64,000 bases of DNA, taken from the human T2T-CHM13v2.0 reference genome, Homo sapiens. Every line of letters starts with the position of its first letter. Positions within the stretch are counted from its first letter, which is position 1. Under the pieces are notes generated by a model. The model worked only from the letters and a program-made list of their open reading frames with translations, ran no database searches and was not told the DNA's origin. Location of the stretch: NCBI GenBank assembly GCA_009914755.4, contig CP086569.2, positions 9,856,001 to 9,920,000 on the forward strand. Reading direction: 5' to 3'. Below, in pieces: positions 43,252-44,776 of the stretch. The translations under genes were made by a program, and so were the position numbers.

Positions 43252-44776
43252 TTTTTGATGGGGTTGTTTGTTTTTTTCTTGTAAATTTGTTTGAGTTCAT
43301 TGTAGATTCTGGATATTAGCCCTTTGTCAGATGAGTAGGTTGCGAAAATTTTCTCCCATGTTGTAGGTTGCCTGTTCACTCTGATGGTAGTTTCTTTTGC
43401 TGTGCAGAAGCTCTTTAGTTTAATTAGATCCCATTTGTCAATTTTGGCTTTTGTTGCCATTGCTTTTGGTGTTTTGGACATGAAGTCCTTGCCCACGCCT
43501 ATGTCCTGAATGGTAATGCCTAGGTTTTCTTCTAGGGTTTTTATGGTTTTAGGTCTAACGTTTAAATCTTTAATCCATCTTGAATTGATTTTTGTATAAG
43601 GTGTAAGGAAGGGATCCAGTTTCAGCTTTCTACATATGGCTAGCCAGTTTTCCCAGCACCATTTATTAAATAGGGAATCCTTTCCCCATTGCTTGTTTTT
43701 CTCAGGTTTGTCAAAGATCAGATAGTTGTAGATCAAAAAGTGGGCGAAGGACATGAACAGACACTTCTCAAAAGAAGACATTTATGCAGCCAAAAAACAC
43801 ATGAAGAAATGCTCATCATCACTGGCCATCAGAGAAATGCAAATCAAAACCACTATGAGATATCATCTCACACCAGTTAGAATGGCAATCATTAAAAAGT
43901 CAGGAAACAACAGGTGCTGGAGAGGATGTGGAGAAATAGGAACACTTTGACACTGTTGGTGGGACTGTAAACTAATTCAACCATTGTGGAAGTCAGTGTG
44001 GCGATTCCTCAGGGATCTAGAACTAGAAATACCATTTGACCCAGCCATCCCATTACTGGGTATATATACCCAAAGGACTATAAATCATGCTGCTATAAAG
44101 ACACATGCACACGTATGTTTATTGCAGCACTATTCACAATAGCAAAGACTTGGAACCAACCCAAATGTCCAACAATGATAGACTGGATTAAGAAAATGTG
44201 GCACATATACTCCATGGAATACTATGCAGCCATAAAAAATGATGAGTTCATATCCTTTGTAGGGACATGGATGAAATTGGAAACCATCATTCTCAGTAAA
44301 CTATCGCAAGAACAAAAAACCAAACACCGCATATTCTCACTCATAGGTGGGAATTGAACAATGAGATCACATGGACACAGGAAGGGGAATATCACACTCT
44401 GGGGACTGTGGTGGGGTCGGGGGAGGGGGGAGGGATAGCATTGGGAGATATACCTAATGCTAGATGACACATTAGTGGGTGCAGCGCACCAGCATGGCAC
44501 ATGTATACATATGTAACTAACCTGCACAATGTGCACATGTACCCTAATACTTAGAGTATAATAAAAAAAAAAAAAAAAAAGAATTTTAGTGAAATAACAA
44601 TGTAAATGAAAACAATTGGAAATAATTTGTGCGATAGAGAAAATTATGGTCTTAAATTGACTTAGTCTTTTCCTCAGAAAGCATCTTCTCCAACAAAAAT
44701 CCATTAGTGTTGTTAAAATTCCAATTAAAATGTTTCTACTCTTAAATACAAAAAAAAAAAAAAAAAAAAAAAAAAA
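43252..44776 (+). mobile_element. Nested L1 insertion with 5' inversion (twin-priming structure) and a 3' transduction. L1 ~pos 4995-5473 is inverted (43252-43733). L1 ~pos 5470-3' end is direct with poly-A (43734-44580). Then come 169 bp of non-L1 sequence with an ATTAAA signal (44581-44749) and a second poly-A (44750-44776). It is flanked by a 14-bp TSD GAAAGGACATCCAC (43238-43251 and 44777-44790).
   Basis: ORF 43131..43781(-) translates L1 ORF2 C-terminal sequence ([25 protein letters not shown]…NNPIKKW). ORFs 43753..43950(+) and 44115..44357(+) continue ORF2 on the + strand. The tail reads …cttagagtataat(a)18, then unique sequence gaattttagtgaaataacaatg…ccaattaaaatgtttctactcttaaatac, then (a)27. 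The host L1 sequence resumes exactly after the duplicated 14-mer. Confidence 0.85.

What the first reader, a model, noticed from the sequence alone, without database searches (positions are those of the whole stretch)
44563..44776. 169-bp non-L1 3' transduction with its own ATTAAA signal tags the source locus of the nested L1
After the nested L1's normal 3' end and first poly-A (44563-44580) come 169 bp of unique sequence (44581-44749, gaattttagtgaaataacaatgtaaatg…ccaattaaaatgtttctactcttaaatac). These bases contain ATTAAA at 44724-44729. A second, longer poly-A follows at 44750-44776, and only then the TSD. This is the signature of read-through transcription from a progenitor L1 into its downstream flank. 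The 169-bp tag should match the sequence immediately 3' of the source L1 elsewhere in the genome.
Basis: partly seen in the sequence, partly recalled or inferred. Interest (0 to 1): 0.55.

Follow-up and report, generated by a model that had tools for sequence, protein, structure and literature searches.

The report
L1HS insertion carrying a 3' transduction
A young human L1 copy that landed inside an older L1 carries 169 bases of non-L1 DNA between two poly-A tails, which is the ordinary signature of an L1 transcript that read through into its neighbouring DNA before being copied here.

Summary
A canonical L1 3' end is followed by A18 (44563-44580), then 169 bp of AT-rich non-L1 sequence (44581-44749) with ATTAAA at 44724-44729, 20 nt before the tag ends. 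A27 follows (44750-44776), then the target-site duplication.

One TSD pair, AGAAAGGACATCCAC (43237-51 and 44776-90), encloses the whole 1.5-kb insert. There is no separate TSD around the L1 part. Removing the insert restores a continuous host L1 5'UTR.

The insert is an L1HS Ta-0 copy: ACA triplet, G/C at the Ta-0 sites, and 358 of 365 ORF2p residues identical to solved human ORF2p. It is 5'-inverted by twin priming.

The tag matches nothing else in the window, including four other L1 3' ends and many Alus, and matches no Rfam family.

Every testable hallmark of a partnered L1 3' transduction is met. The decisive test, locating the tag next to a source L1, could not be run because no human genome is available here. 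Scans of microbial, metagenome and viral collections, a protein search and a literature search all found nothing.

This is a textbook, well-known phenomenon. It is correctly read and of low interest.

The parts
43237..43251 (+). 5' copy of the target-site duplication AGAAAGGACATCCAC, lying in the host L1 5'UTR
   Evidence: Exact 15-nt repeat with 44776-44790.
43252..43733 (-). Inverted 5' segment of the nested L1HS. It covers ORF2 codons ~910-1069 read on the minus strand and is the product of twin priming.
   Evidence: Aligns in reverse to host L1 48330-48815 at 96.3%. The open frame is identical to human ORF2p except for 2 residues. There is a 4-nt microhomology CCAC/GTGG at the junction with the TSD.
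43732..44562 (+). Direct 3' segment of the nested L1HS Ta-0: ORF2 C-terminus from ~codon 1068, plus the 3'UTR. It carries one stop codon and a 2-bp TA insertion.
   Evidence: Aligns to host 48804-49642 at 92.9%. ACA lies at 44469-71 and G/C at 44075/44078, 394 nt apart as the rule requires. 10-12 nt of L1 (ATCAAAAAGTGG) is present in both segments.
44560..44565 (+). L1's own AATAAA signal, bypassed in the transcript that was copied
44563..44580 (+). Internal pure A18. Inferred to be the genomic A-tail of the source L1, transcribed as part of the read-through RNA.
   Evidence: Two poly-A tails are described as typical of partnered transductions in PMC13009371.
44581..44749 (+). 169-bp non-L1 tag, the transduced 3' flank of the source element
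   Evidence: No match in the window. No Rfam family. No hit in any searchable collection.
44724..44729 (+). ATTAAA polyadenylation signal, 20 nt upstream of the poly-A addition site
   Evidence: It lies inside the 10-30 nt range quoted in PMC13009371. The chance level is 14%.
44750..44775 (+). Terminal poly-A of the retrotransposed RNA. It is A26-27, because the A at 44776 is shared with the TSD.
44776..44790 (+). 3' copy of the target-site duplication
42406..49650 (+). Host: an older full-length L1PA (GAG triplet) interrupted by the insertion near the 5'UTR/ORF1 boundary, with its own TSD AAAATCTTTC
   Evidence: The reconstructed empty site aligns without a break across the junction to another L1 copy at 25741-25313(-).

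Best explanation
A single L1 retrotransposition event placed a 1,524-bp insert into the 5'UTR of an older L1.

Inferred mechanism:
1. The template was a read-through transcript of a full-length L1HS (Ta-0 lineage) located elsewhere in the genome.
2. RNA polymerase II ignored L1's weak AATAAA and transcribed the source element's genomic A-tail (now A18) and 169 nt of its 3' flank.
3. The transcript was cleaved and polyadenylated about 20 nt after an ATTAAA in that flank.
4. ORF2p nicked the bottom strand of the target (5'-TTTCT/G) and primed on the new poly-A tail. It copied the tag, the A18 and 831 nt of L1.
5. A second priming used the top-strand end ...CCAC-3', paired to GUGG inside the L1 RNA. 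It produced the 482-nt inverted segment (twin priming).
6. Repair left a 14-15-bp TSD.

Shown: the anatomy, the subfamily, the single TSD pair, the intact empty site and the microhomologies. Inferred: the read-through origin of the tag and the existence and position of the source.
For: Order of parts: L1 terminus, A18, 169 bp, ATTAAA, A27, TSD. One TSD pair encloses the whole composite, and the L1 plus A18 part has no repeat of its own: the flanks ...GACATCCAC and GAATTTTAG... share nothing. After removing the insert and one TSD, the host L1 is continuous.

The tag is not L1, not Alu and not any Rfam RNA.

The nested copy is a young, human-specific L1HS Ta-0. It has ACA plus G/C at the exact spacing. 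ORF2p is 358/365 identical to solved human ORF2p. Both A tracts are pure.

Twin-priming hallmarks are present.

The literature describes this anatomy. About 25% of L1 insertions carry 3' transductions. Partnered transductions are often characterised by two poly-A tails (72% in that data set). 79% end 10-30 nt after a poly-A signal (PMC13009371). In PCAWG, 3,669 of 18,739 somatic L1 events were transductions. About 31% of L1 copies are 5'-inverted (PMC3219598).
Against: The source locus was not found. No human genome is available, and all indirect searches were empty. Adjacency of the tag to an L1 is therefore unproven.

The poly-A signal at the right distance would occur by chance in about 14% of sequences of this composition.

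The inferred nick site (TTTCT/G or TTTC/T) lacks the A's of the TTTT/AA consensus.
Confidence: 0.88

Rival explanations
1. Chimeric retrocopy. TPRT started on the poly-A tail of an unrelated polyadenylated cellular RNA and copied its last 169 nt. The reverse transcriptase then switched template to the poly-A tail of an L1 RNA, or the two RNAs were ligated beforehand. The tag would then be the 3' end of some transcript that does not neighbour any L1.
For: The tag ends with a poly-A signal plus poly-A, as any mRNA 3' end does. L1 template switching and RNA ligation are documented (PMC13174262). Sequence alone cannot separate this reading from read-through.
Against: Described chimeras have the other RNA at the 5' side of the L1 (U6, U3, 28S, Alu, mRNA exons), not at the 3' side. 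No small-RNA family matches the tag. A switch exactly onto an L1 poly-A tail is not a described class, whereas 3' transduction accounts for about 20-25% of L1 insertions.
Confidence: 0.05
2. Two events. A plain L1HS Ta-0 inserted first. Later a 5'-truncated retrocopy (169 nt plus poly-A) inserted in the same orientation into its A-tail, so the second event's TSD is hidden in the A run.
For: The second A run is longer than the first (27 against 18), as a tail plus an A-only TSD might give. A-tails are T-rich on the bottom strand and could be nicked by the L1 endonuclease (established knowledge).
Against: It needs a second, rare non-L1, non-Alu retrocopy to hit a target of about 30-45 bp in the correct orientation within the short life of a Ta-0 copy. 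The priors favour a single event by orders of magnitude (inference). Both A tracts are pure and nothing marks a second junction.
Confidence: 0.03
3. The 169 bp is an unusual extension or variant of the L1 3'UTR, or a fragment of another interspersed repeat, rather than unique flanking DNA.
For: The tag is AT-rich and of low complexity. No repeat library (Dfam/Repbase) could be consulted here.
Against: The tag lies after the canonical L1HS terminus and an 18-A tract. It has no similarity to the host L1, three other L1 3' ends, or any other of the many repeats in the 64 kb.
Confidence: 0.03

Closest known systems
Partnered L1 3' transductions. Known from cultured-cell assays and genome surveys since about 1999-2000, and from transduction families used to trace source L1s in populations and tumours (reviewed in PMC13009371 and PMC9311842).
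   Same: The anatomy is identical: L1 3' end, internal A tract, unique flank ending 10-30 nt after a poly-A signal, terminal poly-A, and one TSD pair. The copy belongs to the Ta lineage. The transduction is short (169 bp).
   Different: Nothing structural differs. Here the source is unidentified, the copy is an older Ta-0 with a stop codon and a frameshift (an inert offspring), and it is nested in another L1.
Twin-primed (5'-inverted) L1 insertions
   Same: There is an inverted 5' segment contiguous in L1 coordinates with the direct 3' segment. There is 4-nt microhomology between the target end and the L1 RNA, and a 10-12-nt duplication at the inversion point. About 31% of L1 copies are of this type.
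   Different: None. The combination with a transduction is also documented (inversion rates per source are given).
U6/L1 and other RNA/L1 chimeric insertions (PMC13174262)
   Same: Non-L1 sequence is co-inserted with L1 inside a single TSD pair.
   Different: In those chimeras the foreign RNA sits 5' of the L1 and is usually a small RNA or spliced exon. Here it sits 3' of the L1, after an A tract, and matches no RNA family.
SVA 3' transductions
   Same: The read-through mechanism and the two-tail anatomy are the same (PMC9311842).
   Different: The element here is L1, not SVA.

Membership tests
Partnered L1 3' transduction | The L1 body ends at its canonical 3' terminus with its own AATAAA, followed by an A tract | tested here: met
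   ...CTTAGAGTATAATAAA plus A18 at 44560-44580. The alignment to other L1 3' ends stops there.
Partnered L1 3' transduction | The sequence after the first A tract is not L1 and not another repeat | tested here: inconclusive
   There is no match to any L1, Alu or other sequence in the window and no Rfam family. No genome-wide repeat library was available.
Partnered L1 3' transduction | A poly-A signal 10-30 nt upstream of the end of the transduced segment, followed by a second poly-A | tested here: met
   ATTAAA at 44724-29, 20 nt before A27. This would arise by chance in 14% of shuffles.
Partnered L1 3' transduction | One TSD pair flanks L1 plus tag together, and the empty site is intact | tested here: met
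   15-nt TSD. The reconstructed host L1 aligns across the junction. The L1 part alone has no TSD.
Partnered L1 3' transduction | L1 endonuclease-type target (TTTT/AA-like) | tested here: inconclusive
   The bottom strand reads 5'-CCTTTCT/GTTC (or TTTC/TG). It is T-rich on the primer side, but the AA is missing.
Partnered L1 3' transduction | The tag is identical to the DNA immediately 3' of a full-length source L1 (or of its empty or polymorphic site) in the same orientation | not testable with these tools
   No human genome is available. Exact-match scans of genome contigs, metagenome contigs and viral contigs found nothing. So did a protein search of the tag's open antisense frame, an exact ORF look-up and a literature string search.
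L1HS Ta-0 subfamily | ACA at 5929-5931, and G and C at 5535 and 5538 (rule quoted in bioRxiv 10.1101/179705) | tested here: met
   ACA at 44469-71 and G/C at 44075/44078, with the expected spacing of 394 nt. The host L1 has GAG. ORF2p is 358/365 identical to human ORF2p.
Twin-priming 5' inversion | An inverted 5' segment adjoins the direct 3' segment in L1 coordinates, with a small overlap or deletion and microhomology at the junctions | tested here: met
   Inverted segment = host 48330-48815. The direct segment starts at host 48804. Microhomologies are CCAC and AT.
RNA/L1 chimeric insertion (U6/L1 type) | The foreign RNA is fused to the 5' side of a 5'-truncated L1 in sense orientation, and the foreign part is a known small RNA or exon | tested here: not met
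   The foreign part is 3' of the L1 and after an A tract. There is no Rfam match. The definition is from PMC13174262.

The most novel reading that the evidence does not exclude
The tag is not the flank of any L1. It would instead be the 3' end of an unrelated polyadenylated transcript, joined to an L1 RNA's poly-A tail by template switching or RNA ligation. That would be a 3'-side L1 chimera, a class not in current catalogues. A milder version is that the tag identifies a so far uncatalogued Ta-0 source lineage that is absent from the reference genome.
Probability: 0.05. Interest if true: 0.4.

Novelty: already known. Interest (0 to 1): 0.14.

Why it matters
The value is practical rather than conceptual. 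A transduced tag is the only way to assign an L1 copy to its progenitor. The 169 bp could therefore link this Ta-0 copy to a source locus and to sibling copies that carry the same tag.

If the window is Y-linked, as the TSPY-like pseudogene at its start suggests, the insertion is also a potential lineage marker. Nothing here challenges current understanding of L1 biology.

Tried and rejected
1. Finding the source or sibling loci. Three different 30-32-nt tag segments were scanned against genome contigs (x2), metagenome contigs (x2) and viral contigs, with 0 hits. These collections are microbial or viral with only incidental primate DNA, so absence says nothing.

2. The tag is open on the minus strand as part of a 208-aa ORF. 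I searched its 57-aa translation against the 5.8-billion protein set and looked up the exact ORF. Neither found anything. Primate contigs do exist in that set, because TSPY hits came back.

3. Six tag 19-22-mers were searched as strings in 8 million papers, with 0 hits. Supplements of the human-specific mobile-element catalogue (PMC6191304) are not held. Szak et al. 2003 (PMC156586) is not held.

4. The tag as an L1 3'UTR variant, Alu or other local repeat is rejected.

5. The tag as a small structured RNA (U6-type chimera) is rejected.

6. A separate TSD around the L1 plus A18 alone was not found.

7. The poly-A signal as strong evidence on its own is rejected, because 14% of shuffles show one.

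Full report
**Observation.**
- The nested L1 ends ...CTTAGAGTATAATAAA, with its own AATAAA at 44560-44565.
- A pure A18 follows at 44563-44580.
- Then come 169 bp of AT-rich sequence (44581-44749, 27% G+C) with ATTAAA at 44724-44729. The last base of the hexamer is 20 nt before the end of the tag.
- A pure A27 follows at 44750-44776.
- Then comes AGAAAGGACATCCAC (44776-44790), which is repeated exactly at 43237-43251.

A repeat of 15 nt lies at the extreme tail of what random pairs of 40-mers from this window give. A18 and A27 are the two longest A runs on the + strand.

The poly-A signal is weak evidence on its own. 14% of mononucleotide shuffles of the tag carry AATAAA or ATTAAA at a suitable distance from the end.

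**Anatomy of the whole insert.** The host is a full-length older L1 on the + strand.
- It starts at 42406 (GGGGGGAGGAGCCAAGATGG) and ends near 49650.
- It has its own TSD, AAAATCTTTC.
- It carries GAG at the subfamily-diagnostic triplet.

The insert occupies 43252-44775/6 (1,524 bp). It sits in the last part of the host 5'UTR, just upstream of ORF1. Joining 42950-43251 to 44791-45150 gives a sequence that aligns without interruption across the junction to another L1 copy in the window (25741-25313, minus strand, 85%). The insert plus one TSD copy is therefore a clean addition to an intact target.

The insert has two L1 segments.
- 43252-43733 is inverted. It matches host 48815-48330 at 96.3%.
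- 43732-44562 is direct. It matches host 48804-49642 at 92.9%.

The two segments are adjacent in L1 coordinates and share 10-12 nt (ATCAAAAAGTGG). The left junction has a 4-nt microhomology: the TSD ends ...CCAC, and the L1 sense strand reads GTGG at that point. The inner junction has a 2-nt overlap, AT. This is the standard twin-priming arrangement. About 31% of human L1 copies are 5'-inverted (PMC3219598).

**Age and family of the nested copy.** A rule quoted in bioRxiv 10.1101/179705 defines the subfamilies. ACA at 5929-5931 marks Ta. G and C at 5535 and 5538 mark Ta-0.
- The nested copy has ACA at 44469-44471.
- It has G and C at 44075 and 44078.
- The spacing is exactly the expected 394 nt.

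Its 365 C-terminal ORF2 codons differ at only 7 positions from the human ORF2p sequences in the Protein Data Bank (9k6g, 8uw3). Two of the seven are the Ta-0/Ta-1 diagnostic residues (KD against NE). One is a stop codon. There is also a 2-bp TA insertion.

The copy is therefore a young, inert L1HS Ta-0 offspring. The source should be sought among L1HS elements, not L1PA in general.

**Nature of the tag.**
- It has no significant similarity to anything else in the 64 kb (best E = 0.03 over 29 nt). That includes the host L1, three further L1 3' ends and many Alu copies.
- No Rfam family matches it at E <= 1.
- It lies after the canonical L1 terminus and an 18-A tract, so it is not a 3'UTR variant.
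- Whether it is unique in the genome could not be tested.

**Mechanism.** The best explanation is a partnered 3' transduction.
1. A full-length L1HS elsewhere was transcribed through its weak AATAAA, its genomic A-tail and 169 nt of flank.
2. The RNA was cleaved about 20 nt after the ATTAAA in that flank and polyadenylated.
3. Target-primed reverse transcription from the new tail copied the tag, the A18 and the L1.
4. Twin priming produced the inverted segment.
5. A single 14-15-bp TSD resulted.

The literature describes this same anatomy as typical. About 25% of L1 insertions carry a transduction. Partnered transductions are often characterised by two poly-A tails (72% in that data set). 79% end 10-30 nt after a poly-A signal (PMC13009371). 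In PCAWG, 3,669 of 18,739 somatic L1 events were transductions.

The inferred nick site (5'-TTTCT/G on the bottom strand) is T-rich but lacks the consensus AA. That is a minor deviation.

**What could not be shown.** The decisive test is mapping the tag to the DNA directly 3' of a source L1, and it needs a human genome, which is not among the tools. Indirect attempts all came back empty.
- Exact scans with three tag segments in genome contigs, metagenome contigs and viral contigs.
- A protein search with the tag's open antisense frame.
- An exact look-up of the 208-aa ORF that spans it.
- A string search of the literature.

These collections hold primate DNA only incidentally, so the negatives carry no weight.

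**Rivals.**
1. A chimera formed by template switching or RNA ligation between an unrelated polyadenylated RNA and the L1 poly-A tail. Known chimeras have the foreign RNA 5' of the L1 (PMC13174262), and the tag is no known small RNA. I give it about 5%.
2. A second retrocopy inserted into the A-tail of a plain L1HS. This is possible in principle but needs a rare event in a tiny target within a short time. I give it about 3%.
3. A repeat or 3'UTR variant. The window comparisons argue against it, but it was not tested genome-wide. I give it about 3%.

**Verdict.** The finding is real and correctly interpreted. Two refinements apply: the source is expected to be L1HS Ta-0, and the copy is twin-primed. 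It is a textbook case of a phenomenon known for more than two decades. Its only use is as a tag for tracing the source element and sibling copies.

Noticed in passing
window 700-2420 (+), within the G+C-rich first 2 kb: There is a TSPY-family (NAP domain) gene fragment with introns. ORF 718-1005 begins [15 protein letters not shown] 890-1309 carries ...[55 protein letters not shown] 2090-2302 carries [33 protein letters not shown]. The exon-1 reading frame is split between two frames, so it is probably a pseudogene. The best named database hits are human and primate TSPY (79-98% over parts). The window is therefore probably from the human Y chromosome.
   Followed up: partly
window 43252-43733 and junctions at 43248-43251 and 43732-43733: The nested L1HS is 5'-inverted by twin priming. 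It has 4-nt (CCAC) and 2-nt (AT) microhomologies and a 10-12-nt duplication of L1 sequence at the inversion point.
   Followed up: yes
window ~43185 (host L1 5'UTR) compared with 25741-25864 (-): The host L1 lacks about 122 bp (TCTGAGACAAAAC...CCAGCAAACTCC) that is present in the other L1 5' region of the window. The missing stretch lies between short direct repeats (ACTCC / GTCC...ACTCC), which suggests a microhomology-mediated deletion. Without the insert the host is only ~5.7 kb long.
   Followed up: partly
window 42390-42405 and 49643-49660: The host full-length L1 has its own TSD AAAATCTTTC and only a short A8 tail. It carries the older GAG triplet and is 93-96% identical to the nested copy.
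   Followed up: partly
window 44222-44848 (-): A 208-codon open frame runs antisense through the host L1 edge, both poly-A tracts (as F runs), the whole tag and the L1 3'UTR. It is almost certainly a chance result of the T-rich antisense composition. No such protein is on record.
   Followed up: yes
window 28164-29477 (+), 56164-56677 (-), 25313-26560 (-): There are three further L1 fragments: two 3' ends and one 5'UTR/ORF1 part. There are also many Alu copies, and long pure T runs at 53184-53211 (T28), 31818-31839 and 18608-18628, which are probably tails of minus-strand retroelements.
   Followed up: no
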